From Malacoraja senta (lineage: Eukaryota): a stretch of 64,000 bases of DNA. The notes below the pieces were generated by a model. That model did not search any database. It saw nothing but the letters and a program-made list of their open reading frames with translations, and was not told the DNA's origin. Below, one piece after another: positions 124-47,300 of the stretch. The position numbers and the translations under genes are program-made. Position 1 is the stretch's first letter. Each line of letters starts with the position of its first letter. Where the stretch lies: assembly GCA_038087875.1 (NCBI GenBank), contig CM075988.1, positions 186,001-250,000 on the forward strand, read 5' to 3'.

Positions 124-323
124 NNNNNNNNNNNNNNNNNNNNNNNNNNNNNNNNNNNNNNNNNNNNNNNNNNNNNNNNNNNNNNNNNNNNNNNNNNNNN
201 NNNNNNNNNNNNNNNNNNNNNNNNNNNNNNNNNNNNNNNNNNNNNNNNNNNNNNNNNNNNNNNNNNNNNNNNNNNNNNNNNNNNNNNNNNNNNNNNNNNN
301 NNNNNNNNNNNNNNNNNNNNNNN
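124..323. other. Assembly gap (200 N)
   Basis: Run of exactly 200 N, typical of a fixed-length scaffolding placeholder. Confidence 0.99.
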
Positions 324-27300: not shown

Positions 27301-30300
27301 GTGAGTGTGGCCGGTGAGTGAGTGAGTGTGGCCCGTGAGTGAGTGTGGCCCGTGAGTGAGTGAGTGAGTGAGTGAGTGAGTGAGTGAGTGAGTGAGTGAG
27401 TGAGTGAGTGAGTGAGTGAGTGAGTGAGTGAGTGAGTGCGTGAGTGAGTGAGTGAGTGTGGCCCGTGAATGAGTGTGATTGAGTGTGGCCCGTGAGTGAG
27501 TGTGAGTGAGTGTGGCCCGTGAGTGAGTGTGTGTGGCCCGTGAGTGAGTGAGTGTGGCCGGTGAGTGAGTGTGGCCCGTGAGTGAGTGAGTGCGTCTGGT
27601 GAGTGAGTGAGTGTGGTCGGTGAGCGAGTGAGTGAGTGTGACCGGTGAGTGAGTGTGGCCCATGAGTGAGTGTGACCCGTGAGTGAGTGTGACCCGTGAG
27701 TGAGTGAGTGAGTGAGTGAGTGAGTGAGTGAGTGAGTGAGTGAGTGAGTGAGTGAGTGAGTGAGTGAGTGAGTGAGTGAGTGCGTGAGTGAGTGAGTAAG
27801 TGAGTGAGTGATGCCGGTGTGTGAGTGAGTGAATGTGGCCGGTGCGTGAGTGAGTGAGTGTGGCCGGTGAGTGTGGCCGGTGAGTGAGTGAGTGTGGCCG
27901 GTGAGTTAGTGAGTGAGTGAGTGTGGCTGGTGAGTGAGTGAGTGTGGCCGGTGAGTGAGTGAGTGAGTTAGTGAGTGTGGCCGGTGAGTGAGTGAGTGTG
28001 GCCCGTGAGTGAGTGTGGCCTGTGAGTGAGTGAGTGAGTGAGTGAGTGAGTGAGTGAGTGAGTGAGTGAGTGTGAGTGAGTGAGTGAGTGAGTGTGGCCC
28101 ATGAATGAGTGAGTGATTGAGTGTGGCTTGTGAGTGAGTGTGAGTGAGTGTGGTCCCTGAGTGAGTGTGTGTGGCCCGTGAGTGAGTGAGTGTGGCCGGT
28201 GAGTGAATGTGGCCCGTGAGTGAGTGAGTGAGTTAGTGAGTGTGGCCGGTGAGTGAGTGAGTGTGGCCCGTGCGTGAGTGTGGCCCGTGAGTGAGTGAGT
28301 GAGTGAGTGAGTGAGTGAGTGAGTGAGTGAGTGAGTGAGTGAGTGAGTGAGTGAGTGTGTCCCGTGAATGAGTGAGTGAGTGAGTGTGGCCTGTGAGTGA
28401 GTGTGAGTGAGTATGGGCCGTGAGTGAGTGTGTGTGGCCCGTGAGTGAGTGAGTGTGGCCGGTGAGTGAGTGTGGCCCGTGAGTGAGTGAGTGCGGCCGG
28501 TGAGTGAGTGAGTGTGGTCGGTGAGCGAGTGAATGAGTGTGACCGGTGAGTGAGTGTGGCCCATGAGTGAGTGTGACCCGTGAGTGAGTGTGACCCGTGA
28601 GTGAGTGAGTGAGTGAGTGAGTGAGTGAGTGAGTGAGTGAGTGAGTGAGTGAGTGAGTGATACCGGTGTGTGAGTGAGTGAATGTGGCCGGTGCGTGAGT
28701 GAGTGAGTGTGGCCGGTGAGTGTGGCCGGTAAGTGAGTGAGTGCGGCCGGTGAGTTCCTGAGTGAGTGGGTGTGGCTGGTGAGTGAGTGAGTGTGGCCGG
28801 TGAGTGAGTGAGTGAGTTAGTGAGTGTTGCCGGTGAGTGAGTGAGTGTGGCCCGTGAGTGAGTGTGGCCCGTGAGTGAGTGAGTGAGTGAGTGAGTGAGT
28901 GAGTGAGTGAGCGAGTGAGTGAGTGAGTGAGTGAGTGAGTGAGTGAGTGAGTGAGTGAGTGTGGCCCGTGAATGAGTGAGTGAATGAGTGTGGCCTGTGC
29001 GTGAGTGTGAGTGAGTGTGGCCCGTGAGTGAGTGTGTTTGGCCCGTGAGTTAGTGAGTGTGGCCGGTGAGTGAGTGTGGCCCATGAGTGAGTGATTGCGT
29101 CCGGTGAGTGAGTGAGTGTGGTTGGTGAGCGAGTGAGTGAGTGTGACCGGTGAGTGAGTGTGGCCCATGAGTGAGTGTGACCCGTGAGTGAGTGTGACCC
29201 TTGAGTGAGTGAGTGAGTGAGTGAGTGAGTGAGTAAGTGAGTGAGTGAGTGAGTGAGTGAGTGAGTGATGCCGGTGTGTGAGGGAGTGAATGTGGCCGGT
29301 GCGTGAGTGAGTGAGTGTGGCCGGTGAGTGTGGCCGGTGAGTGAGTGAGTGCGGCCGGTGAGTTAGTGAGTGAGTGAGTGTGGCTGGTGAGTGAGTGAGT
29401 GTGGCCGGTGAGTGAGTGAGTGAGTTAGTGAGTGTGGCCGGTGAGTGAGTGAGTGTGGCCGGTGAGTGAGTGTGTGAGTGAGTGTGTGAGTGAGTGAGTG
29501 AGTGAGTGAGTGAGTGAGTGAGTGAGTGAGTGAGTGAGTGAGTGAGTGAGTGAGTGAGTGAGTGAGTGAGTGAGTGTGGCTGGTGAGTGAGTGAGTGCGT
29601 GAGTGTGGCCGGTGAGTGAGTGAGTGAGTGAGTGTGGCCGGTGAGTGAGTGAGTGTGAGTGGGTGTGGCCGGTGAGTGAGTGAGTGTGGCCGGTGAGTGA
29701 GTGAGTGAGTGAGTGCATGAGTGTGGCCGGTGAGTGATTGAGTGAGTGTGGCGACTGTGGCCAGTGTGTGAGTGAGTGAGTGTGGCCAGTGAGTGAGTGT
29801 GGCCGGTGAGTGTGTGTGGCCGGTGAGTGGGTGAGTGAGTGAGTGAGTGTGTGAGTGAGTGAGTGAGTGAGTGAGTGAGTGTGAGTGAGTGAGTGAGTGA
29901 GTGAGTGAGTGAGTGAGTGAGTGAGTGAGTGAGTGAGTGAGTGAATGAGTGAGTGAGTCAGTGAGTGAGCGAGTGAGTGAGTGAGTGAGTGTGGCCCGTG
30001 AATGAGTGAGTGATTGAGTGTGGCCCGTGAGTGAGTGTGAGTGAGTGTGGCCCGTGAGTGAGTGTGTGTGGCCCGTGAGTGAGTGAATGTAGCCGGTGTG
30101 TGAGTGTGGCCCGTGAGTGAGTGTGTGTGGCCCGTGCGTGAGTGAGTGTGGCCGGTGAGTGAGTGTGGCCCATGAGTGAGTGAGTGTGGCCGGTGAGTGA
30201 GTGAGTGTGGTCGGTGAGCGAGTGAGTGAGTGTGACCGGTGAGTGAGTGTGGCCCATGAGTGAGTGAGTGAGTGAGTGAGTGAGTGAGTGAGTGAGTGAG

Positions 30301-33300
30301 TGAGTGCGTGAGTGAGTGAGTGAGTGAGTGAGTGAGTGATGCCGGTGTGTGAGTGAGTGAATGTGGCCGGTGCGTGAGTGAGTGAGTGTGGCCGGTGAGT
30401 GTGGCCGGTGAGTGAGTGAGTGCGGCCGGTGAGTTAGTGAGTGAGTGAGTGTGGCTGGTGAGTGAGTGAGTGTGGCCGGTGAGTGAGTGAGTGAGTTAGT
30501 GAGTGTGGCCGGTGAGTGAGTGAGTGTGGCCGGTGAGTGAGTGTGTGTGAGTGAGTGAGTGAATGAGTGAGTGAGTGAGTGAGTGAGTGAGTGAGTGAGT
30601 GAGTGAGTGAGTGTGGCTGGTAAGTGAGTGAGTGCGTGAGTGTGGCCGGTGAGTGAGTGAGTGAGTGAGTGTGGCCGGTGAGTGAGTGAGTGTGAGTGGG
30701 TGTGGCCGGTGAGTGAGTGAGTGTGGCCGGTGAGTGAGTGAGTGAGTGCATGAGTGTGGCCGGTGAGTGATTGAGTGAGTGTGGCCACTGTGGCCAGTGT
30801 GTGAGTGAGTGAGTGTGGCCAGTGACTGAGTGTGGCCGGTGAGTGAGTGTGGCCGGTGAGTGAGTGAGTGAGTGAGTGCGTGTGTGAGTGAGTGAGTGAG
30901 TGAGTGAGTGAGTGTGAGTGAGTGAGTGAGTGAGTGAGTGAGTGAGTGAGTGAGTGAGTGAGTGAGTGAGTGAGTGAGTGAGTGAGTGAGTGAGTGAGTG
31001 ATGCCGGTGTGTGAGTGAGTGAATGTGGGCGGTGCGTGAGTAAGTGTGGCCGGTGAGTGTGGCCGGTGAGTGAGTGAGTGCGGCCGATGAGTTAGTGAGT
31101 GAGTGAGTGTGGCTGGTGAGTGAGTGAGTGTGGCCGGTGAGTGAGTGAGTGAGTTAGTGAGTGTGGCCGGTGAGTGAGTGAGTGTGGCCCGTGAGTGAGT
31201 GTGGCCCATGAGTGAGTGAGTGAGTGAGTGAGTGAGTGAGTGAGTGAGTGAGTGAGTGAGTGAGTGAGTGAGTGAGTGAGTGTGGCCCGTGAGTGAGTGT
31301 GAGTGAGTGTGGCCCATGAGTGAGTGTGTGTGGCCCGTGAGTGAGTGTGGCCGGTGAGTGAGTGTGGCCCGTGAGTCAGTGAGTGCATCCGGTGAGTGAG
31401 TGAGTGCGGTCGGTGAGCGAGTGAGTGAGTGTGACCAGTGAGTTAGTGTGGCCCATGAGTGAGTGTGACCCGTGAGTGAGTGTGACCCGTGAGTGAGTGA
31501 GTGAGTGAGTGAGTGAGTGAGTGAGTGAGTGAGTGAGTGAGTGAGTGATGCCGGTGTGTGAGTGAGTGAATGTGGCCGGTGCGTGAGTGACTGAGTGTGG
31601 CCGGTGAGTGAGTGAGTGAGTGTGGCCCGTGAGTGAGTGTGGCCCGTGAGTGAGTGAGTGAGTGAGTGAGTGAGTGAGTGAGTGAGTGAGTGAGTGAGTG
31701 AGTGCGTGAGTGTGGCCCGTGAATGAGTGAGTGATTGAGTGTGGCCTGTGAGTGAGTGTGAGTGAGTGTGGCCCGTGAGTGAGTGTGTGTGGCCCGTGAG
31801 TGAGTGAGTGTGGCCGGTGAGTGAGTGTGGCTCGTGAGTGAGTGAGTGTGGCTGGTGAGTGAGTGAGTGTGGCCGGTGAGCGAGTGAGTGAGTGTGACCG
31901 GTGAGTGAGTGTGGCCCATGGGTGAGTGTGACCCTGAGTGAGTGAGTGAGTGAGTGAGTGAGTGAGTGAGTGAGTGAGTGAGTGAGTGAGTGAGTGAGTG
32001 AGTGAGTGAATGAGTGAGTGAGTGAGTGAGTGAGTGAGTGTGGCCGGTGAGTGCGTGAGTGTGAGTGGGTGTGGCCGGTGAGTGAGTGAGTGAGTATGGC
32101 CGGTGAGTGAGTGAGTGCATGAGTGTGGCCGGTGAGTGATTGAGTGTGGCCACTGTGGCCAGTGTGTGAGTGAGTGGGTGTGGCCGGTGAGTGAGTGAGT
32201 GAGTGTGGCCGGTGAGTGAGTGTGGCCGGTGAGTGTGTGAGTGAGTGAGTGAGTGAGTGAGTGAGTGAGTGTGAGTGAGTGAGTGAGTGAGTGAGTGAGT
32301 GAGTGAGTGAGTGAGTGAGTGAGTGAGTGAGTGAGTGAGTGAGTGAGTGAGTGAGGCCCGTGAGTGAGTGTGAGTGTGTGAGGCCCGTGATTGAGTGTGA
32401 GTGTGTGTGGCCCGTGAGTGAGTGAGTGAGTGTGGCCGGTGAGTGAGTGTGGCCTATGAGTGAGTGAGTGAGTGAGTGAGTGAGTGAGTGAGTGAGTGAG
32501 TGAGTGAGTGAGAGTGAGTGAGTGTGGCCGGTGAGTGAGTGAGTGAGTGAGTGAGTGTGAGTGAGTGAGTGAGTGAGTGAGTGAGTGAGTGAGTGAGTGA
32601 GTGAGTGAGTGAGTGAGCGAGTGAGTGAGGCCCGTGAATGAGTGAGCGAGTGAGTGTGGCCCATGAGTGAGTGTGAGTGAGTGTGGCCCGTGAGTGAGTG
32701 CGTGTGGCCCGTGAGTGAGTGAGTGTGGCCGGTGAGTGAGTGTGGCCCGTGAGTGTGAGTGCGGCCGGTGAGTGAGTGAGTGTGGTCGGTGAGCGAGTGA
32801 GTGAGTGTAACCGGTGAGTGAGTGTGGCCCATGAGTGAGTGTGACCCGTGAGTGAGTGTGACCCGTGAGTGAGTGAGTGAGTGAGTGAGTGAGTGCGTGA
32901 GTGCGTGAGTGAGTGAGTGAGTGACTGCGGCTGGTGAGTGGGTGAGTGAGTGAGAGAGTGAGTGTGGCCGGTGAGTGATTGAGTGAGTGTCGCCAGTGTG
33001 TGAGTGAGTGTGGCCAGTGAGTGAGTGTGGCCGGTGAGTGAGTGAGTGAGTGTGGCCAGTGTTTGAGTGAATGATTGAGTGTGGCCAGTGAGTGAATGAG
33101 TAGCCGGTGAGTGAGTGAGAGAGTGAGTGAGTGAGTGAATGAGTGAGTGAGTGAGTGAGTGTGAGTGAGTGAGTGAGGGTGGCCGGTAAGTGAATGAGTG
33201 CGGCCGGTGAGTGAGTGAGTGTCGCCGGTGAGTGAGTGAGTGTGGACGGTGAGTGAGTGTGTGAGTGATTGCGGCCGGTGAGTGAGTGAGTGAGTGAGTG

Positions 33301-34519
33301 TGGCTGGTGAGTGAGTGAGTGAGTGAGTGAGTGAGTGAGTGAGTGAGTGAGTGAGTGAGTGAGTGAGTGTGGCTGGTGAGTGAGTGAGTGAGTGAGTGAA
33401 TGTGGCCCGTGAGTGAGTGTGGCCGGTGAGTGAGTGAGTGAGTGAGTGAGTGAGTGAGTGAGTGAGTGAGCGAGCGAGTGAGTGAGTGAGTGTGAGTGAG
33501 TGAGTGAGTGAGGCTGGTGAGTGAGTGAGTGAGTGAGTGAGTGTGGCCCATGAGTGAGTGTGGCCTGTGAGTGAGTGAGTGAGTGAGTGAGTGAGTGAGT
33601 GAGTGAGTGAGTGAGTGAGTGAGTGAGTGTGTGGCCCGTGAATGAGTGAGTGAGTGTGGCCCGTGAATGAGTGTGAGTGAGTGCGTGTGGCCCGTGAGTG
33701 AGTGAGTGTGGCCGGTGAGTGAGTGAGTGTGGTCGGTGAGCGAGTGAGTGAGTGTGACCGGTGAGTGATTGTGGCCCATGAGTGAGTGTGACCCATGAGT
33801 GAGTGTGACCCGTGAGTGAGTGAATGAGTGAGTGAATGAGTGAGTGAGTGTGGCCAGTGAGTGAGTGTGGCCGGTGAGTGAGTGAGTGTGGCCGGTGAGT
33901 GAGTGAGTGTGGCCGGTGAGTGAGTGAGTGAGTGTGACCGGTGTGTGAGTGAGTGAGTGTGGCCGGTGAGTGAGTGTGGCCAGTGAGTGAAAGAGTGAGT
34001 GTGGCCGATGAGTGAGTGAGTGAGTGAGTGTGGACGGTGAGTGAGTGTGGCCGGTGAGTGAGTGAGTGTGTGTGGCCGTTGAGTGAGTGAGTGAGTGAGT
34101 GTGGCCGGTGTGTGAGTGAGTGAGTGTGGCCGGTGAGTGAGTGTGGCCGGTGAGTGAGTGAGTGAGTGTGGCCGTTGAGTGAGTGAGTGAGTGTGGCCGG
34201 TGAGTGAGTGAGTGAGTGAGTGTGGCTGGTGAGTGATTGAGTGAGTGTGGCCGGTGAGTGAGTGAGTGAGTGAGTGAGTGTGGCCAGAGAGTGAGTGAGT
34301 GTGGCCGGTGAGTGTGAGTGATTGAGTGTGGTCAGTGAGTGAGTGAGTGAGTGAGTGAGTGAGTGAGTGTGGCCTGTGAGTGAGTGAGTGTGGCTGGTGA
34401 GTGAGTGAGTGAGTGAGTGAGTGAGTGAGTGAGTGTGTGAGTGAGTGAGTGAGTGAGTGAGTGAGTGAGTGAGTGAGTGAGTGAGTGAGTGAGTGAGTGA
34501 GTGAGTGAGTGTGGCCAGT
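324..34519 (+). repeat. Complex satellite: (GTGA)n backbone punctuated by GTGTGGCCGG / GTGTGGCCCG / GTGTGACCCG motifs, ~0.5-1 kb monomers
   Basis: Continuous GTGA tetramer. The marker GATGCCGGTGTGTGAGTGAGTGAATGTGGCCGGTGCGTG recurs (e.g. ~370, 859, 1605, 3388, 4675, 5762, 7396, 9681, 11835, 14000, 16734, 18277, 19800, 22828, 27140, 30338, 31547) with a conserved order of variant motifs between copies. Confidence 0.98.
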
Positions 34520-35091
34520 TGTTACGACTCCGGAAAGCATGTAATCTAGAGCCGCGTAACAAAATTCAAACACCAGGTTTAAGTTCCAAAAATAGTTTAA
34601 TTATTTAGTAACACACCAAAACTCCAACCTGATTTAAACAACCCAGACAAGGATGGGAATGGATTTACAAACAACTTAAAAGTGCTCAGGCCAGCCACGC
34701 GATGGACCGTCGAACCTGAGACTCTAAACCTGCCTAAAAGAAAGCTATCCCTGAAACAAAATACCGATAACTTCAAAGCACAGCCCAATTCAATATTTGG
34801 TACGACGTAAGGTTGAAATTACACGAAGTTCTAGGCCATGTGGCCAGGCCTTCCACAGCTCACAACAGCAGTCAGCTTACGAGGCAGGGTCGTCGGAGAG
34901 AGAGAGAGCATTCTGGGAACTCTGCTATTTATACTTCAGATGAGTCACCCGTCACCTGATGCAGCTTCGCCAATCGGGTACAGGAGCCTTTTAACCCCTT
35001 GTTGTCCCGACTCATCCACAAGGCCTGCACTCGGGAAGGAAACAGAGAAAGGTTAATTCATAACATTGACCAGGAGGGGGAGCGCCTAACA
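34520..35091 (-). mobile_element. 3' LTR (~572 bp) of Gmr1-like Gypsy-group retrotransposon
   Basis: On the minus strand it begins TGTTAGG (35091) right after a PPT-like TTTAGGTGGGGG and ends CGTAACA (34520), giving TGTTA..TAACA terminal inverted repeats. It contains TATAAA (34928-34933, minus), TGAGTCA (34941-34947), CCAAT (34970-34974) and ATTAAA (34596-34601, minus). Confidence 0.8.
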
Positions 35092-37034: not shown

Positions 37035-37071
37035 ATCCGAAGTACCTATTCAAGTCTTCTGCCATTTTCTT
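37035..37071 (-). mobile_element. Short CR1 ORF2 stub, continuation of the CR1 at 42601-44393
   Basis: Encodes KMAEDLNRYFG, which follows GEIIMGNK (42601+) in CR1 ORF2. Compare GEFIMGNKEIADELNRYFGS in the CR1 at ~60610-60670. Confidence 0.75.
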
Positions 37072-37722
37072 AATAGTAATAGTAATTTTATTGTCAATTC
37101 ACATAATGTAACGAGTAGTTACACAGAGGATTGAAATTGCGTTTCTCCATACTCCAATGTGCAAGTAATATTTATAAAACAGACAGACAGTGTACCAATA
37201 AAAGTAGACAATGGACATATACATTATATAAAATAATATATTCATTAATAAAAGGTGCAATATAGCATACTGTGCAAGTAGCATACTGCAGACATGAAGT
37301 TAATTTGACAGTCAGTTGGTCTTTGTGTAATGTTCATGGAATTTTCTTGAGTGTGTTGAGTAGTCTGATGGCCTGAGGGAAAAAGCTGTTTTTGAATCTT
37401 GTGGTTTTGCTCCGCATGCTGCGGTAGCACTTGCCGGATGGTAGGAGGGTGAACAGTTTATGTGCTGGGTGGGTGGTGTCTTTGATGATGTTAGTTGCTC
37501 TCTTGCGACAGCGAGATGGATATGTCTTGAATTGCTGGTTGGGGTGGTCTAGTGATCTTCTCCGCTGTCCTCACCACTCTCTGTAGGGCCTTCTGGTCAG
37601 CAGCAGAGCAACTGCCATACCAGACTGAGAGACTGCTGGTAAGAATGCTCTCAATGGCACCCCTGTAAAAAGTTGTGAGGGCAGAAGGGGGGAGGTCGGC
37701 TCTCCTCATCCGTCGAAGGAAG
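37072..37722 (-). mobile_element. Rex1/Babar-type non-LTR retrotransposon, 3' part
   Basis: RRMRRADLPPSALTTFYRGAIESILTSSLSVWYGSCSAADQKALQRVVRTAEKIT, followed by a 3' UTR with AATAAA and an (ATTACT)n tail at ~37072-37092. Confidence 0.85.
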
Positions 37723-37733
37723 TGTAGATGAGA

Positions 37734-38506
37734 TCCCCGGTCAAGTTGTCCGTATGCAGACCGCTCCCGGTTACTCCAAGCTCGCTACTGTCGTCGGCTC
37801 TGCGGGGTCGCCCAGGTCCTATTTCGTCGACCATGCTGGGGCCATTTACCGACGGTCCCGCCAGCACCTTCGGCTCGTCAACGAGCCGCGTCCTCCTGCC
37901 GCGGATCCCTTTGCTCCCCCACTGCCTGTTTCGCGTCAGGGCGTTGCTCTGCCCGTCCGTCCTGACATGCAACGTTCTGCTCCTCCTCCGCCCCTTCCGT
38001 TCCAACCCACTCCGACTAGTCCTCGCTCGCCTGCCCGCGCTCTTCCCGGTCCCGACCTCGCATCCCCTCCGGGTTCGGTGCCGCGGTCTCTTCCGTCTCC
38101 TCCCGTTTCTCCCTTTCAGGTTCGTCTTTCCCCGCCGGTGCCTCTTCCTCCTGCAGGAAGGGTGGATGGCGAGACGCGAACCCGGGCGGGACGTCTTGTC
38201 AAACCGCCTGACCGCTATGGCGATTTTGTTTAACTATCCTAGCGCATGAGCCGTGGTCGCCATGTCACCATTGTATTTGCCTGTCGTTTCGAAGAGGAAA
38301 GATGTAGATGAGATATGCATGTGCCTTTAACATAGTGACCTCATACCTACTAACCACTCCCCATATCACAAGTATATCTACAACCTCCCCACCCACAGAT
38401 CGCTCTCTAGTTCCTGTGACAGACCACGTACAGCTAGTGCTATGTGTAATGCTCCAGTATGAATAAAGATAGTAAAGTAACGACGCCTAGTTATGAATCC
38501 TTTACA
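37734..38506 (+). repeat. 773-bp direct repeat of 41568-42340 (integrase C-terminus + 3' UTR + PPT + LTR)
   Basis: Offset 3834 bp. The only difference I found by eye is T37834 versus C41668 (CpG transition). Confidence 0.95.
38303..38506 (+). mobile_element. Gypsy LTR (204 bp), upstream copy
   Basis: TGTAGATGAG...CCTTTACA, with AATAAA at 38462-38467. Preceded by the PPT GAAGAGGAAAGA (38291-38302) and followed by the PBS. Confidence 0.95.
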
Positions 38507-41500
38507 TGGTGTCAGAAGTGGGATTCGAACCCACGCCTCCAGTGCTACAAGGGGAGGTACCCAGCAAAGGTGCCCTAATTGCAACTTCACAACTCATCAA
38601 TTCAATGTGTGCCCTGCTTTGGGAAAGACTTGCAATGTCTGCAATAAATTGAACCATTTTGCTGCGGCTTGTCGTTCCCGTGGGAAGCCTGTCGCTGCTC
38701 GAAAGGGAAATGTAAACAACCTTCTACAAGCTGACAACGAGCTCAGCTCCCAGTGCTATTCCGATGAACATTCTGTTTCTACATCTGACTCCTCTCAGGG
38801 GGAGACCAACTTGTTTACCGTGTTGGACGCACCTGCTATGATAACGGATCCTTCTGTGCAAGTCACTGTGAACAACTCGACCTTCACTGCTAAAATCGAC
38901 ACGGGGGCGGTGACCAACGTAATGTCAACATCCCTTTTCAACCAGATAAGAACTAATGAGCAGATATTTTCTCAGAGCTCAACCTTGCATGCCTACGGTG
39001 GGGAGATTCTTACTCCTGTGGGCAAGGCCACGCTACACTGTAAGATACTAGAGACCACTTGGCCCCTCACCTTCTATCTCCTCAATCGAAAATGCATTCC
39101 CCTGCTGGGGATCCAGGCATGCCAGGAAATGGGACTGGTGTACTTCCACCGGGACATCCACCAGGTGCAGACTCTTATGGACCCGCTGGCCGATTATCCC
39201 GACCGCTTTGATGATAAGCTAGGCAAACTACCCTGCAGCTACAAGATTGTAGTGGACCATAAGATCGTTCCTGTGGTCCATGCTCCTCACCGTGTCTCCT
39301 TCGCCATGAGGGACAGAGTGGAGGCGACCCTACACAGTATGGTACAAATGGGCGTCCTAAAGGCGGTAGTCAAGCCCACCAGCTGGGTCTCTTCCATGGT
39401 TGTTGCTGCTAAAAAGGACATGAGCGAGATACGCATCTGCATCAACCCCAAGGACCTCAACCTGGCCATTCGACGCCCTCACTACCCTATGAGAACGGTG
39501 GAAGACGTCGCTGCACAGGTTGGTCCAGCAACGGTTTTTTCTGTCCTCGATGCCAAAAGCTCCTTCTGGCAGATACCACTGGACGAGCGGTCGTCCATTT
39601 TGACAACTTTCGCCACCCCCTACGGAAGGTTTCGGTTCCTCCGAATGCCATTCGGGATCAACTCTGCCAGCGAGGTATTTCAGCGGACCATGGAGCAGTT
39701 GTTTTTAGATCTGCCTTGCGCCATAATTGTTGACGACATCCTCGTTTACGGTAAGGACGTTGCCGAACACGATGTCAACCTCCGCCTGGTCCTGGACCGG
39801 GCCCGGCAAATCAACTTGAAACTGAACCCCAAGAAGTGCCGATTCCGCGTCTCGGAGGTCACCTATGTTGGACATGTATTCACCGCTGAGGGGCTAAAGC
39901 CAGACCCGCAGAAAACGGCTGCCATCTCAGGGATGCCCCCTCCTACCAATGTGGCAGGCCTGCAACGCTTCCTCGGCTTGGTAAACTACCTGGGGAAGTT
40001 CATCCCCGACCTCAGCGAGCTCAGCGCTCCCCTGAGGGATCTGATCAAAAAGGACACGTCCTGGCTTTGGTTACCCAACCATCAGAAGGCATTTGACATT
40101 CTTAAGTCTAAGCTGATCAGCACCCCCACGCTCAAGTTCTTTGACCTGCAGCATCCCATTGTCCTCACCTGCGACGCCTCTCAGTTCGGACTCGGTGCCG
40201 CCTGCCTCCAGGTCCATGACGGCCTGCAGCTGCCTGTCTCCTTCGCGTCCCGCACCATGACCGCCACCGAACAGCACTACGCGCAGATTGAGAAGGAGCT
40301 ACTGGCCGTGGTGTTTGCCTGCTCCAAATTCCGGGACTACATCGTGGGCAACACTTTCACCGTTGAAACTGACCATCAGCCACTTGTCACCATCCTCAAC
40401 AAATCGATCCATGTGGCCTCATCACGCCTGCAGCGCATGATGCTGCAGCTCCAGCGCTTCACTTCACGGTGGTTTATCGTAAGGGCAAGGACATGTTCGT
40501 GGCCGACACGTTGTCTCGCGCCCCGCTGACGTCCACCGCTCGCCACCAATATGAAATGTCTGAGTTATTGGTGCTACGATTGAACATCGTCCCCTCGCAG
40601 CAGATGAAGTCCCTGGTTGAACACACTACCAATGACCCTGCCCTGCAACAGCTGTCTGCCGTCATCCGGCAGGGCTGGCCTGACCGTCGTTCGGCACTGC
40701 CGGCTGGTGCCGTGCCCTACTTCCTGATTCGGGACGAGCTCGTACTGCACGACGGCGTGGTGGTGAAGGGTCACAAAGTGGTCGTGCCCGCGGCGCTGCA
40801 CGACCAATATTTTCAAGTCGCACACCGCGGTCACCCTGGGGCCGAAGCCACCGTGTCTCTCGCCAGGAGCCAGTTCTATTGGCCGGATATGGCCAAATAC
40901 ATCCGGGAGAGGGTCTCCTCGTGTTCCACCTGCAACAGCCGCGCCCCCCATCAGCAGCGTCAGCCGCTTCTACAGCAGCCCGCGCCCGAACTGCCCTGGA
41001 TGGCGCTTGCCACTGACATTTTCGAGTGGCGGGGCAAACATTTCCTGGTGCTCGTTGACTCCTACTCCAGCTGGTTTGTGGTCGACCGGCTGCATTCCGT
41101 GACCTCTTCGGCCGTCATCGACAGGTTGTACCCTCATTTTGGCACTTTTGGCCCCCCGGCAAGCCTGCAGTCGGACAATGGCAGCCAGTTCACGAGCTCC
41201 GAGTTTAAAGCGTTCGCTTCCAGATGGAACTTCCGCCATTTCACCAGCAGCCCAGAGTACCCACAAAGCAACGGTTTGGCCGAGCGCGCAGTCCGCAGTG
41301 CTAAGCACCTGTTGGAACAGTGTGGTGGCATTAACTCCGACTTCCATCTGGCCCTCCTCAACCTTCGGAACATTTCCCGCGACTCTGCCATGGGTTCACC
41401 TGCTCAGCGGCTCATGTCTCGCGCTACCAGACTCCCGCTCCCTGTGGCCCAGCGCTCCCTCATACCCTCCATCCTCCCACCTGCGGCGGTTCAGAAACGC

Positions 41501-42067
41501 ATTGCCTTCAGGCACGACGTCCAAAAGCGTTCCCATGACAGGTCCTGCCACCCGCTGCCGCGCCTCTTCCCCGGTCAAGTTGTCCGTATGCAGACCGCTC
41601 CCGGTTACTCCAAGCTCGCTACTGTCGTCGGCTCTGCGGGGTCGCCCAGGTCCTATTTCGTCGACCACGCTGGGGCCATTTACCGACGGTCCCGCCAGCA
41701 CCTTCGGCTCGTCAACGAGCCGCGTCCTCCTGCCGCGGATCCCTTTGCTCCCCCACTGCCTGTTTCGCGTCAGGGCGTTGCTCTGCCCGTCCGTCCTGAC
41801 ATGCAACGTTCTGCTCCTCCTCCGCCCCTTCCGTTCCAACCCACTCCGACTAGTCCTCGCTCGCCTGCCCGCGCTCTTCCCGGTCCCGACCTCGCATCCC
41901 CTCCGGGTTCGGTGCCGCGGTCTCTTCCGTCTCCTCCCGTTTCTCCCTTTCAGGTTCGTCTTTCCCCGCCGGTGCCTCTTCCTCCTGCAGGAAGGGTGGA
42001 TGGCGAGACGCGAACCCGGGCGGGACGTCTTGTCAAACCGCCTGACCGCTATGGCGATTTTGTTTAA
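38493..42067 (+). pseudogene. Gypsy gag(C-terminal zinc knuckle)-pol polyprotein, broken by one frameshift near 40461
   Basis: Zinc knuckle region CPNC..H..CPALGKTCNVCNKLNHFAAAC, protease IDTGA, RT (VLDAKSSFWQIP, RMPFGI, IVDDILV), RNase H (CDASQFGLGA, YAQIEKELLA, TDHQPL), integrase (H..GHPG..CSTC, DIF, SDNGSQF, NGLAERAV). ORFs 38493-40529 and 40469-42067 join if one base is restored (QRF[N]FTVVYRKGK). Confidence 0.9.
38507..38542 (+). promoter_or_regulatory. tRNA-Leu primer-binding site extended to 35-36 nt
   Basis: TGGTGTCAGAAGTGGGATTCGAACCCACGCCTCCAG is the reverse complement of CTGGAGGCGTGGGTTCGAATCCCACTTCTGACA-CCA, the 3' part of vertebrate tRNA-Leu (CAG/CAA), including the T-loop and the CCA end. 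Confidence 0.9.
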
Positions 42068-42124
42068 CTATCCTAGCGCATGAGCCGTGGTCGCCATGTC
42101 ACCATTGTATTTGCCTGTCGTTTC

Positions 42125-42136
42125 GAAGAGGAAAGA
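42125..42136 (+). promoter_or_regulatory. Polypurine tract
   Basis: GAAGAGGAAAGA immediately before the 3' LTR. Confidence 0.9.
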
Positions 42137-42340
42137 TGTAGATGAGATATGCATGTGCCTTTAACATAGTGACCTCATACCTACTAACCACTCCCCATAT
42201 CACAAGTATATCTACAACCTCCCCACCCACAGATCGCTCTCTAGTTCCTGTGACAGACCACGTACAGCTAGTGCTATGTGTAATGCTCCAGTATGAATAA
42301 AGATAGTAAAGTAACGACGCCTAGTTATGAATCCTTTACA
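42137..42340 (+). mobile_element. Gypsy 3' LTR (204 bp)
   Basis: Identical by eye to 38303-38506. Ends CA followed by the TSD GGAAG. Confidence 0.95.
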
Positions 42341-42600
42341 GGAAGTGCTTTCTTGACTAGGGAGATGGTGTTGGTGGACCATGTCTGATCATCTGTGATG
42401 TGTACTCCCAGGAACTTGGTGCTTTTCACAGACTCCACTGCACTGCCATTTATGGTGAGTGGGGTGTGTGCTGCCTGTTTCTTCGTGAAGTCCACAGTTA
42501 TTTCTTTCGTTTTGTTGACATTGAGTTGAAGGTTATTGATGTCACACCAGTTGATGAGTTGTTGTACCTCCTCTCTGTAGGCTTCTTTAGATATTATCCA
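42341..42600 (-). mobile_element. Rex1/Babar-type element, upstream part (5'-truncated)
   Basis: EAYREEVQQLINWCDINNLQLNVNKTKEITVDF..INGSAVESVKSTKFLGVHITDDQTWSTNTISLVKKA, which continues into the 37072-37722 piece across the Gypsy insertion. Confidence 0.85.
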
Positions 42601-44394: not shown

Positions 44395-47300
44395 CTGTTT
44401 TGGTGCTATCCCAGCACTCTGGAGTGAACACATACATGGATCGATGTGACACCCCAAGCCGTAGGGGCAGTCTATTCAGAATCTGCAAGTCATAAATTGA
44501 TGTTATCATGCAAAGGCTGGTTTCCCGAGCCACAGGCTGAACCGGCAAAGTTTAAGTTTAGAATAACCATATATGGTTGCTGTGGCGGCTCCCAAGGGTC
44601 GGGCCATCCTAACTGTCAAACCCCTCGGCACGGGAATGGTTCAGTCCAGAGGCGGCCCTTAACCAGAGGGTTTAAATGCAAGGGTTTGGGTGCCATCTTA
44701 TTCTCGTGGACTTCCCTACAACCTGGAAGGACATAAATAAAGGTGCCTCCCGAAATACCTGGCTCCTTGCTTTCATTTCGGGACCTACGCACCACATTGT
44801 ATTATTATTCCCGACAAAAGCGGGAATCAAAGCTGCATAGGCCAGTCAGACAGTAGGAAAAACCTAAAGCAGGATCTTGATGACTTTATTTGAAGACCCG
44901 ACTAATGAGGCAAAATGGAGGAAGACATAAAAGACCATTCCTCCTCCTTGTAGCGAGAATGTATCTCTCGCCACTTTTATGCCACATATTTTTGCAACCG
45001 GTGAATAAGCATGAAAACAACATATCGATATTCGGTGTTCCATCGAACCAGAATTTCATAAATACTGTATGATCCAACACCCATTTTGTGTTGTCATTGA
45101 TCTGTACTTGATGATAAACCAATGGCGAATGTATTAGTTAAACTATTACAGGATACTTTTACTTGATTGCACCCATGTGACTAACATATGCCACCACCAT
45201 AGTGTATTAACTTGAAGTTGAGCATGCAGATTATGCATATTCGCTCAATCATTCTTTAACCCATAGAATGCACCGAGTGTCTATAGATAGTTGATACCAA
45301 AAACTGAAGATTTGGTAACTCATGCAAATCTCTTCCACCTCCAAACTAGAGATGACATTCGCAATTTTCCACGTTAGAGACCTTAGCATCAGTTTGCAAT
45401 ATAACTGAAAATTTTACTGACCAAACTACTGGAGCAATGCTGAATACAGTTCATCCATCATTGTGACTTTGGTAGCTTCAGCTGGTAATAGCATAGGTGT
45501 GTTACCAATGACCTACATGGCACTTGAGAGGTTGCCACTTTGCACAATGTCAGTTCTCCCACCTGCACAGCTGAATCACAGCTACTATATTGCCAATTAC
45601 TCTTGATGAATAGAAGGCTGCTTTATAACAAGGCTGTTACAGGTTTCTATTAACTCCAATCTCTTGCCCCAGGGCGGAGTCATAGGCTAATTAATAGTTA
45701 AAGGTAAATCCCAATGACCAACAAGTCTATGTGGTAACAACTTAAATTTAACTGGATAGAGGAGCCCAATTTCTCAAATATAGTTTGAGGCTGAAACAGT
45801 TGATTTTAGCAAAAATGCAGCGTTAAAATATCATCCAGTCAAGATAACAAGTGTTTTTGAACTCTGAGTAGTCCACTTTGCAATGCTTTACTGTTATCAT
45901 TACTGTTATCATACTGTTATCATTGCCTCATCATAGCAATTACCTCCTCCTGATAATTTCAAATATCTCAGATGATCACTGTAAATGGGAACACCCTATG
46001 AAATCAGTTGTTAATCAGTAACGAAGTTTCCTATTCGGAAAAGTTTATACTGCACATGCGCGTTAAACAACATTCTCCATCTTTCATAATGAACAGGCCA
46101 CGCCTGCTATCATTTCGTGCCTGCCTCGAATGACAACTCTGGCCCGATTTCCGTGCCTGTCTTCAAAGACAATCCTGGCCATAATACTGAGCCTACCTCA
46201 TAATTCTGAACCTGCCTCTAAAGACAACTCTGGCCATAATTCTGAGCCTGCCTCGAAAGACAACTCTGGCCATAATTCTGAGCCTGCATCGAAAGACAAT
46301 TCTGGCCACAATTCTGAGCCTGCCTCGAAAGACAACTCTGCCCATATTTCCGAGCCTGTCTCGAAGGCAATCCGGGCCAAAATACTGGGCCTGCCTCAAA
46401 ACCCAATTCTGGCCCCAATTCCAAACCTGCTTGGAATGCTAGCATTGTCCAGTTTTACATGGTTAGATGCCGCTAAGTAGATGACAATGTCTTAACCATT
46501 TGTGTAATGTACAACCAAGTGTAAATATTACCAACTTGTAAGTGGTCCACTTACCCCATGTTTCGGAAGTGCCAGACCTATCTATCTCCCTGGTTACCTT
46601 AGTTGAAGAGTAGAACTGGTAGGGTGCGTGGAACCTCTGCCCAGCTTTCATGCTGCCACCAGCTTCAGTGAACCGCTTACTGCCGATGAACATGTGTGGT
46701 GCATTGTCGCCGAAACGATGAAGCTTTGCTCGTCGTTGGTACGTTGATTGGTCCGACAGCTTTTGCTTTGTCCTCCAGGTTTTGCCTGTTGAACAGGTCT
46801 TACCTGAATAGAAGATTCGGCGGCTGGCTCTAATGTCCCCCTGATAGCGCTGTTCACTGCCTGCACGCATGTGCTCCAGTATGTTCAACGGACATACTTT
46901 AGAATTTGAAGTCAGCTACATACTGACCACTCGCATCCCCTCCTCAAAGAGTGCGAATCGTAGGCAGCGCTGAAACAGGTGCTGCCGCAGGCCCCTGAAG
47001 ATACCTGCGCTGATATGGCCCTTCCAACGGACCTATACCAGGATGGAACATTTTTTCCCTGATTCTGTTGGGATGGCAAACCTTGCTGCCAGGAATGGTA
47101 CCTCTGACATGTGCCCTTCATCCCTTGGGGTATGCTCCATGGCTATACCCTCAGACTCGGCGTCAGAATTACACTGACCCGGCATGCTCTCCTCCTCCAC
47201 GAGGGAGACATTAAGCAGCCCTGTCCCAGGTGCTGCTGGCGCGGGCTCTCCCATAGGCCGGCGCTGACACAACTCCTGCTGTTGGAGCGTATCTAGGTGG

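What the first reader, a model, noticed from the sequence alone, without database searches (positions are those of the whole stretch)
38507..38560. Half a mature tRNA-Leu copied into a retrotransposon: PBS read-through past m1A58, fused to the end of gag
Seen: after the LTR, complementarity to tRNA-Leu runs 35-36 nt (CCA end, acceptor stem, whole T-arm, into the variable arm) and then joins sequence just upstream of the gag zinc knuckle, so the leader and most of gag are missing. Established: plus-strand strong-stop synthesis normally halts at m1A58, leaving at most 18 nt (TGGTGTCAGAAGTGGGAT), and CCA is added post-transcriptionally in vertebrates, so the template was a mature tRNA. Inference: RT read through an A58-hypomethylated primer, could not make the normal PBS-PBS second jump, and landed in gag. 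The match ends at the variable loop, where m3C (e2/47d) has been reported in mammalian tRNA-Leu(CAG); from memory, this would be a plausible second RT block. The insertion may therefore record the modification state of a germline tRNA.
Basis: partly seen in the sequence, partly recalled or inferred. Interest (0 to 1): 0.82.

Follow-up and report, generated by a model that had tools for sequence, protein, structure and literature searches.

The report
tRNA-tailed defective gypsy retrotransposon copy
A young, broken copy of a gypsy-type jumping gene carries 36-38 letters copied from its tRNA-Leu primer where its leader and most of gag should be; this copying accident recurs about a hundred times in the genome and seems to preserve traces of chemical marks on the tRNA.

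Summary
Directly after a 204-bp LTR (38303-38506), window 38507-38544 is a perfect reverse complement of the last 35 nt of a host tRNA-Leu(CAG) gene plus CCA. It then joins gag 9 codons before the first zinc knuckle, with 2 nt of overlap. Full-length siblings have only an 8-nt PBS followed by a leader, so the tract is not a family trait. The window copy lacks 743 nt (PBS, leader, about 215 gag codons), and its junction was seen only once. It has a 5-bp target duplication and identical LTRs.

The mechanism is a deferred or aberrant plus-strand transfer. It is already described for HIV-1 proviruses with tRNA-Lys3 inserts.

New here:
- I found 97 independent junctions of this kind in one family, and at least 55 long tracts in other LTR families.
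- The base opposite A58 is miscopied in 15 of 48 read-through events.
- The base opposite the variable-loop C is copied faithfully in only 2 of 18.

These look like m1A58 and m3C footprints. The window copy is faithful at both sites, so hypomethylation of its primer cannot be decided.

Read support could not be tested.

The parts
37718..37722 (.). Left copy of the 5-bp target-site duplication (GGAAG)
   Evidence: The same 5 nt occur at 42341-42345. Five of 5 other complete short aberrant copies also have 5-bp duplications. The host-repeat paralogs end their match here.
37723..37734 (+). 12-nt stub identical to LTR nt 1-12 (the U3 terminus). It forms the left end of the integrated DNA. The last T is shared with the next segment.
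   Evidence: the stub equals the start of both LTRs. (the repeat register starts at 37734).
37734..38302 (+). Duplicate of the pol 3' end, 3' untranslated stretch and polypurine tract (equals 41568-42136, with 1 mismatch at 37834)
38291..38302 (+). Polypurine tract (GAAGAGGAAAGA) directly before the LTR. A second copy lies at 42125-42136.
38303..38506 (+). Internal LTR (functionally the 5' LTR), 204 bp, TGTAG...TTACA, identical to the 3' LTR
38507..38544 (+). tRNA-Leu-templated tract. It is the reverse complement of CCA plus the 3' 33-35 nt of tRNA-Leu. The base opposite A58 is 38525 (faithful T). The base opposite the variable-loop C is 38542 (faithful G).
38543..38544 (+). 2-nt overlap (TG) shared by the tRNA copy and gag: the junction microhomology
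   Evidence: gag homology to sibling L065 starts at 38543
38543..42136 (+). Remaining internal region: gag C-terminal part from about codon 216 (zinc knuckles 38571-38612 and 38631-38672); a protease-like stretch about 38856-39011 (below the Pfam cut-off); RT 39414-39878; RNase H 40068-40460; integrase zinc domain 40784-40948; integrase core 41015-41263. The reading frame changes between 40373 and 40529; the window differs by a 1-nt gap from 5 of 5 siblings aligned over 40300-40620 (a sixth subject given to the search returned no alignment).
42137..42340 (+). 3' LTR, 204 bp
42341..42345 (.). Right copy of the target-site duplication (GGAAG)

Best explanation
The 4,618-bp insert at 37723-42340 is one integrated, defective reverse transcript of a Ty3/gypsy-type LTR retrotransposon primed by tRNA-Leu.

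Shown: full-length relatives inherit only an 8-nt PBS.

Inferred: plus-strand DNA started at the polypurine tract, copied the LTR, and ran on into the tRNA primer still attached to the minus strand. It passed A58 and the variable-loop C, so it covered 36-38 nt of the tRNA including CCA. This 3' tail cannot pair with the minus-strand PBS. Instead of the normal PBS-guided second transfer, the tailed end paired through 2 nt (TG) with minus-strand DNA inside gag. Alternatively, the growing minus-strand end paused there and switched onto the tail. Synthesis then continued. The leader and about 215 gag codons were lost, and the tRNA copy sits at the deletion junction.

A further template switch in the same event put 12 nt of U3 and a second copy of the last 569 nt of the internal region in front of that LTR. 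The order of these switches is inferred, not shown.

Integrase then inserted the product. This is shown by the 5-bp duplication, the U3 terminus at the left end and the U5 terminus at the right end.

The event is recent, because the LTRs are identical. The copy is dead on arrival: no PBS, no leader, most of gag missing, and a frameshift in pol.
For: - 38/38 match to a host tRNA-Leu gene plus CCA, directly after the LTR.
- Canonical siblings: 28 of the 29 other loci have the LTR, then an 8-nt PBS, a leader, and the gag ATG 97 nt after the LTR.
- 281 genome places carry the canonical LTR-PBS-leader pattern, against 98 with the LTR plus 12 or more nt of tRNA copy.
- The window junction is unique among 97 independent junction events.
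- Siblings show the same class of product at other landing sites: 66 sense, 17 antisense, 12 unmapped. The modal microhomology is 2-3 nt.
- Different copies continue into different tRNA-Leu species (CAG-type and CAA-type variable arms), so each tract was copied afresh from a tRNA.
- Miscopying is concentrated opposite A58: 15 of 48 events, against 9 of 1,564 at the other 34 positions (Fisher p about 1e-18).
- 5-bp duplications flank 5 of 5 other complete aberrant copies, and the window copy as well.
- Six of 6 paralogs of the host repeat run uninterrupted across the site.
- The LTRs are 204/204 identical.
- The same mechanism is documented for HIV-1: tRNA-Lys3 inserts of 7-54 nt at deletion junctions in 44 proviruses, 5 with a change at position 58 (PMC12657518, passages read).
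- In Ty1/Ty3 the tRNA-tailed plus-strand strong-stop DNA is described as a dead-end product (PMC5371799, passages read).
Against:
- All 6 uninterrupted paralogs of the host repeat carry 14 nt next to the right duplication that the window lacks. Either this copy of the host repeat was already deleted there, or integration was not clean.
- 2 nt of microhomology is little, and it would also be expected fairly often by chance.
- Which 3' end was extended, and the order of the three template switches, cannot be read from the product.
- The upstream stub-plus-duplicate could in principle come from a later genomic event.
- Sample bias: the first 30 loci were ranked by similarity to a query that included the tract. 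The later census removes most of this bias. It still required 12 tRNA-derived nt and at most 2 mismatches.
Confidence: 0.85

Rival explanations
1. The tract is an inherited trait: a subfamily with a long PBS, or a non-autonomous deletion derivative that keeps being copied. On this view the accident did not happen in this insertion.
For: Three other copies have junctions within about 35 nt of the window's in gag. These are L002, the L004/L005 pair and L003. L004/L005 is a tandem pair sharing one junction.
Against: Those junctions all differ from the window's: tract lengths 35, 14 and 0 nt. They were ranked to the top because the query contained this stretch of gag. The window's exact junction occurs once among 97 events. 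28 of the 29 other sibling loci have the 8-nt PBS and leader.
Confidence: 0.03
2. The structure arose after integration, or in the assembly. The cause would be genomic deletion or recombination next to a tRNA-like sequence, or a chimeric join of reads from different copies.
For: The region is repetitive (hundreds of near-identical copies). The read test could not be run. A 14-nt deficit lies next to the right flank. Tandem LTR-element arrays can arise by recombination (PMC11899658, passages read).
Against: The tract starts with the complement of CCA exactly at the LTR end, and CCA is not gene-encoded (one search shows the genes lack it). The same architecture recurs at 97 sites with different landing points. 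Complete aberrant copies have clean 5-bp duplications. The two 773-bp repeats differ at 1 base only, and the whole unit is bounded by U3 and U5 termini and one duplication.
Confidence: 0.04
3. The mechanism is the same, but the tract ends where it does because the primer was a 3' fragment of tRNA-Leu cut in or near the variable arm. RT then simply ran off its 5' end before switching. No block or pause on a full-length tRNA is needed.
For: 21 of 48 read-through tracts end at 31-35 nt. 5 more, including the window's, end at 38. Such a cluster would also be produced by a common fragment end.
Against: 18 events continue to 39-50 nt. Other LTR families hold at least 55 tracts of 47 nt or more, and one copy of a whole spliced tRNA-Leu(CAA) with CCA (L179). 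Longer templates were therefore in use. The ends are spread over many positions rather than sitting at one. Miscopying at the loop C points to a lesion-like base at that place.
Confidence: 0.1

Closest known systems
HIV-1 defective proviruses made by deferred (aberrant) second-strand transfer, with tRNA(Lys-3) inserts at the deletion junction (Hardy et al., Commun Biol 2025, PMC12657518; passages read)
   Same: An intact LTR is followed by the PBS and then a further copy of the primer tRNA, 7-54 nt there and 11-50 nt here. The insert defines a deletion junction to a downstream internal site. A minority carry a changed base at position 58: 5 of 44 there, 15 of 48 here.
   Different: Here the events are germline-fixed copies of an endogenous Ty3/gypsy element and use tRNA-Leu. 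The inherited PBS is only 8 nt. There are also antisense landings (17 of 83 mapped), returns into U5 or the PBS, a second miscopied site in the variable loop, and, in the window copy, an extra U3 stub plus a duplicated pol end.
Ty1/Ty3 plus-strand strong-stop DNA that copies the primer tRNA and is a dead-end product; PPT recycling model (Lauermann and Boeke 1994, 1997, as summarised in the Ty3 review PMC5371799; passages read)
   Same: The PBS is short. The tRNA copy is not inherited by normal progeny. Tailed strong-stop DNA is a by-product that cannot make the normal transfer.
   Different: The yeast work describes the by-product inside particles. Here the by-products were rescued by illegitimate priming and integrated, making up roughly a fifth to a third of the family's LTR-PBS ends (72 versus 281 places at up to 1 mismatch; 23 versus 52 exact). 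Whether this family recycles its PPT is untested.
[quoted passage not shown]
   Same: Arrest one base before the modified base, plus miscopying at it. The affected sites are A58 and the C in the variable-arm loop.
   Different: The 'sequencing' here was done by a retrotransposon's own RT in the germline and stored in the genome. The loop-C signal also appears in CAA-type tracts. [quoted passage not shown] The chemical identity of the base was not measured.
Ty3/gypsy (Metaviridae) LTR retrotransposons
   Same: TG...CA LTRs, PPT, tRNA-complementary PBS, gag with two CCHC knuckles, order protease-RT-RNase H-integrase, 5-bp target duplication.
   Different: The LTR is very short (204 bp) and the PBS is 8 nt. 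Placement in a named lineage was not tested. A likeness to the Mag/Jule group is recalled from memory only.

Membership tests
Ty3/gypsy LTR retrotransposon | Two direct LTRs ending TG...CA, with a polypurine tract before the 3' LTR | tested here: met
   204-bp identical LTRs, TGTAG...TTACA, with GAAGAGGAAAGA directly before each.
Ty3/gypsy LTR retrotransposon | PBS complementary to the 3' end of a host tRNA directly after the 5' LTR | tested here: met
   28 of the 29 other sibling loci have 8 nt complementary to the 3' end of tRNA-Leu. The window copy has lost this PBS and carries the tRNA copy instead.
Ty3/gypsy LTR retrotransposon | Domain order protease, RT, RNase H, integrase (integrase after RT) | tested here: met
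   RVT_1 (E 1.9e-22), RT_RNaseH_2 (1.3e-30), then Integrase_H2C2 (2e-14) and rve (3e-12). The protease hit is below the Pfam cut-off (21 bits versus 28.2).
Ty3/gypsy LTR retrotransposon | Short target-site duplication made by integrase | tested here: met
   5 bp in the window copy and in 5 of 5 other complete copies examined.
Deferred second-strand-transfer product (tRNA insert at a deletion junction) | tRNA-complementary sequence continuous with the LTR end, including the complement of CCA, extending beyond position 58 | tested here: met
   38 of 38 nt.
Deferred second-strand-transfer product (tRNA insert at a deletion junction) | The insert abuts a downstream internal site in sense orientation, and the sequence between is deleted | tested here: met
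   the join is at the position matching nt 744 after the LTR of sibling L065, and 743 nt are missing.
Deferred second-strand-transfer product (tRNA insert at a deletion junction) | Intact relatives lack the insert | tested here: met
Deferred second-strand-transfer product (tRNA insert at a deletion junction) | Direct observation of the tailed plus-strand intermediate | not testable with these tools
   Needs particle DNA or an in vitro reaction.
   38525 is the faithful T. Among siblings, 33 of 48 read-throughs are also faithful and 15 are miscopied. A faithful base fits both states.
m3C in the variable loop as a second RT block | Arrest before, and miscopying at, the loop C | tested here: inconclusive
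   Family level: 21 of 48 tracts end at 31-35 nt, and only 2 of 18 that pass it (tract 39 nt or longer) are faithful. Genome-wide: the loop variants AATT (24 places), GATT (8) and AAAT (6) are found only at non-gene places, whereas the genes found carry AACT or GACT. In the window copy the C is copied faithfully and the tract ends 0-2 nt later. The chemical identity of the base was not measured.

The most novel reading that the evidence does not exclude
This genome holds a natural, germline 'misincorporation sequencing' record of tRNA-Leu. Retrotransposon RT read into its primer about a hundred independent times in one family, and at least 55 more long tracts lie in other LTR families. It left arrest and miscopy footprints at A58 and at the variable-loop C of both CAG-type and CAA-type tRNA-Leu, with most long tracts stopping before the anticodon loop. 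If the loop signal is m3C, it extends this modification to tRNA-Leu(CAA) in this lineage. It would also show that m1A58-modified primers are read through in vivo at an appreciable rate. Modification state and RT behaviour in the germline of a non-model animal could then be read from a genome assembly alone.
Probability: 0.55. Interest if true: 0.72.

Novelty: new member of a known kind. Interest (0 to 1): 0.6.

Why it matters
For this one locus the result is tidy rather than surprising. It is a dead-on-arrival retrotransposon copy whose structure shows how its reverse transcription failed, by a route already described for HIV-1.

The wider pattern matters more. In a family that inherits only an 8-nt PBS, the tRNA-tailed plus strand, thought of as a dead end in yeast Ty elements, is often rescued and integrated. 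This explains a large class of 5'-deleted, inverted and tandem copies.

Each tract is a fresh copy of a mature tRNA. The copies therefore record which tRNA-Leu species primed the element and how RT reacted at modified bases. That offers a way to study primer choice, m1A58 bypass and a variable-loop modification from assemblies. It also suggests a caution for repeat annotation: an 'extended PBS' can be an accident rather than a signal.

Tried and rejected
1. Read support. One search listed 12 runs, 2 of them holding half or more of the sampled words, and no RNA holder was listed. The junction is therefore not checked against reads.
2. tRNA gene in the window. ARAGORN found none, so the tract is not a gene or pseudogene in place.
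3. The 773-bp repeat as the LTR. Rejected: the LTR is 204 bp and the rest is pol 3' end.
4. Family trait. Rejected.
5. Contig C806 as the empty allele, because its 250-nt flank is 100% identical. Rejected: its wider flanks match only as a 98% paralog upstream (402 nt) and not at all downstream.
6. The pattern search for tRNA-Leu genes that required a non-C after the discriminator missed the CAA genes, which are followed by C. They were found through the 5' half instead.
7. Variable-loop variants as gene-encoded isodecoders. All 38 exact-pattern places with AATT, GATT or AAAT were examined. 37 are LTR junctions, 36 followed by CCA and one (L181) by CCC. One (L035) lacks CCA and no gene was called there. 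Genes missing from the assembly cannot be excluded.
8. Earlier notes of this scan: none.
9. Literature. Searches found no description of germline LTR-retrotransposon copies with tRNA read-through tracts or modification footprints. One search led to the HIV-1 paper. The older retroviral-vector work on such deletions that I recall was not found in the library and is not cited.
10. Tract classes 19-23 nt (a possible second stop near position 54) are not interpretable, because position 19 had to be treated as a wildcard.
Full report
**What is at the coordinates.** The window is part of a 1.94-Gb eukaryotic assembly. Around the finding lies an LTR element.

A 773-bp direct repeat (37734-38506 and 41568-42340, 1 mismatch at 37834) looked like the LTR. 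Comparison with siblings shows that the true LTR is 204 bp: 38303-38506 and 42137-42340, identical to each other, TGTAG...TTACA, each preceded by the polypurine tract GAAGAGGAAAGA. The other 569 nt of the repeat are the 3' end of pol and the untranslated stretch before the PPT.

Pfam finds RT, RNase H, the integrase zinc domain and the integrase core in that order. The protease hit is below the cut-off. This is a Ty3/gypsy-type element.

**The tract.** Directly after the LTR, 38507-38544 is a perfect reverse complement of the last 35 nt of a host tRNA-Leu(CAG) gene plus CCA, 38 of 38 nt (gene L033/L034, ARAGORN). The genes do not encode CCA, so the template was a mature tRNA.

In tRNA terms the copy covers:
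- CCA, the discriminator and the acceptor 3' strand;
- the whole T-arm, and positions 48/47;
- the 3' strand of the variable stem and the three-base variable loop;
- one base of the 5' strand of the variable stem.

The base opposite A58 (38525) and the base opposite the loop C (38542) are both the faithful ones.

The last two bases (TG) also belong to gag in full-length siblings, so the junction has 2 nt of microhomology. The first 37 nt also fit the intron-containing tRNA-Leu(CAA) genes found, so the isoacceptor stays open.

Translation from 38544 gives ATRGGTQQR followed by two CX2CX4HX4C knuckles.

**Not a family trait.** A search with gag sequence from a longer sibling returned 30 loci, one of them the query's own place. 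In 28 of the other 29, the LTR is followed by only 8 nt complementary to the tRNA-Leu 3' end and then a leader. One locus held no LTR. In one such copy (L065) the gag ATG lies 97 nt after the LTR, and gag-pol is open through the 2.2 kb held.

Against it the window copy lacks 743 nt: PBS, leader and about 215 gag codons.

Genome-wide:
- The canonical LTR-PBS-leader pattern occurs at 281 places (up to 1 mismatch; 52 exact).
- The LTR end plus 12 tRNA-derived nt occurs at 98 places (up to 2 mismatches; 23 exact, 49 with 1, 26 with 2; one of the 98 is a canonical copy with a point change).

**A recurrent accident.** I collected the post-LTR sequence for these places and for the earlier loci. This gave 102 distinct sequences after dropping the one canonical copy (L085). 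Collapsing copies that share a junction left 97 events.

| Tract length (nt) | Events |
|---|---|
| 11-17 | 22 |
| 18-23 | 27 (17 exactly 18) |
| 26-35 | 25 |
| 36-50 | 23 |

After the tract each event continues at a different place of the element. Setting aside the window copy and L002, which match the window reference itself, 66 of the other 95 events continue in sense, 17 in antisense and 12 are unmapped. Of the 83 mapped junctions, 53 have an overlap of 0-5 nt (mode 2-3), 6 have 6-11 nt, and 24 have unmatched filler.

Some events land back in U5 or on the PBS, so the element stays whole but carries the insert (L023, L052, L054, L124). The window's junction is seen once.

Three other copies join within about 35 nt of it: L002, L004/L005 and L003, with tracts of 35, 14 and 0 nt. 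They were found because the first query contained that stretch of gag, so this closeness is ascertainment and not a hotspot.

Five of 5 other complete short aberrant copies have perfect 5-bp target duplications, so such products are integrated by integrase.

**Footprints of tRNA modification.** Among the 48 events with a tract of 24 nt or more, the base opposite A58 is wrong in 15 (8 C, 6 A, 1 G). All other 34 positions together show 9 changes in 1,564 position-events (Fisher p about 1e-18). One of the 15 (L102) shares its junction with L104, which has the faithful base, so the count may be 14. This is the arrest-plus-miscopy behaviour described for m1A (PMC4787781, passages). It matches the 5 of 44 HIV-1 cases (PMC12657518).

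The second site is the C in the variable-arm loop:
- 21 of 48 tracts end 1-5 nt before it.
- Of the 18 events with tracts of 39 nt or more, only 2 have the faithful G (7 T, 6 A, 3 C).

A genome-wide pattern for the 3' 47 nt of tRNA-Leu gave 64 places:

| Class | Places |
|---|---|
| True tRNA-Leu genes | 7 |
| Unclear (L205) | 1 |
| Lacks CCA, no gene called (L035) | 1 |
| LTR-adjacent tracts in several LTR families | 55 (53 followed by CCA, L181 by CCC; C4022, locus L128, placed) |

The CAA-type genes found have loops AACT or GACT (L175, L177/L178). The variants AATT (24 places), GATT (8) and AAAT (6) occur only outside genes. The C is in no CpG and changes to all three other bases, so decay is an unlikely cause.

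[quoted passage not shown] I did not measure the modification. Copies within one family in this wider list may not be independent.

**How the window copy most likely arose.**

Shown:
- the tRNA copy;
- the deletion;
- the 2-nt overlap;
- the U3 and U5 termini;
- the duplication.

Inferred: plus-strand DNA read through the LTR into the attached primer. Its tail could not pair with the 8-nt PBS complement. Either the tail primed on minus-strand DNA in gag, or the growing minus strand switched onto the tail.

The left end of the insert is not this LTR. It is a 12-nt U3 terminus (37723-37734) joined to a second copy of the last 569 nt of the internal region (37734-38302). Sibling L013 has the same kind of architecture: 184 nt of LTR, then pol 3' end, LTR, tract, pol. 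I read this as one more template switch of the same nascent strand, but the order of events cannot be proved.

The whole unit is flanked by GGAAG. It lies in a host repeat whose 6 sampled paralogs run straight across the site. Those paralogs, however, have 14 nt next to the right duplication that the window lacks. This is unexplained.

**Known context.** The mechanism is in print for HIV-1, as deferred second-strand transfer. Reviews state that read-through makes the strands non-complementary (PMC8599865; PMC11251516; PMC13191261). For Ty1/Ty3, tRNA-tailed strong-stop DNA is called a dead end and the tRNA copy is not inherited (PMC5371799). My searches found no account of germline LTR-retrotransposon copies of this kind or of modification footprints in them. 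Absence from this library is not proof.

**Verdict.**
- the inherited PBS is 8 nt;
- hypomethylation of the primer cannot be decided;
- the loop C was passed faithfully in this copy;
- there is a second rearrangement upstream.

The locus is a new member of a known kind. The family-wide record of tRNA-Leu miscopying is the part worth following up.

Noticed in passing
window 30000-34600: A long satellite-like array of GAGTGAGTG-rich units with interspersed TGGCCGGT/TGGCCCGT motifs. Three long stop-free frames on the minus strand (up to 1,341 aa) are probably artefacts of the repeat.
   Followed up: no
window 46108-46449: Nine tandem copies of a 36-nt unit (the family is listed as 72-nt copies).
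   Followed up: no
window 37071-37722 and 42341-42416 (further extent not determined): The element sits inside a very young, abundant host repeat: 995 first-look candidates, and all 39 scored places besides the window's own at 98-100% identity. All 6 paralogs sampled have 14 nt next to the right target duplication that the window copy lacks.
   Followed up: partly
window 40373-40529: The pol reading frame changes here. The window differs by a 1-nt gap from 5 of 5 sibling copies aligned over 40300-40620 (a sixth subject given to the search returned no alignment), so pol is frameshifted between RNase H and integrase.
   Followed up: partly
L179 (G000:C4936:178125-178270): An entire spliced tRNA-Leu(CAA) with CCA (87 nt) lies next to what looks like the end of a different LTR. 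This is a full-length read-through of the primer.
   Followed up: no
L113 (G000:C334:18210-18324): A 49-nt tract is followed directly by the tRNA 3' end in sense orientation (a snap-back-like junction) and then by element sequence.
   Followed up: no
L165 and L035: In other LTR-like contexts the tRNA-Leu(CAA) copy runs through the anticodon loop. There, positions 34 and/or 37 differ from the genes, which could be further modification footprints (m1G37 recalled). L035 lacks the CCA.
   Followed up: no
L004/L005 (G000:C2317, 3,833 nt apart): A tandem pair of deleted elements shares the middle LTR, and both units carry the same 14-nt-tract junction. The spacing is nearly equal to the window's 3,834-nt repeat, by coincidence of neighbouring junctions.
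   Followed up: partly
L161, L163, L174, L216, L217: CAG-type long tracts in other LTR families have loops TGT or TTT. The only T-initial loop found in a gene (TCT, L162) goes with a different acceptor stem, so the source gene for these tracts was not found.
   Followed up: no
window 124-323: A run of 200 N.
   Followed up: no
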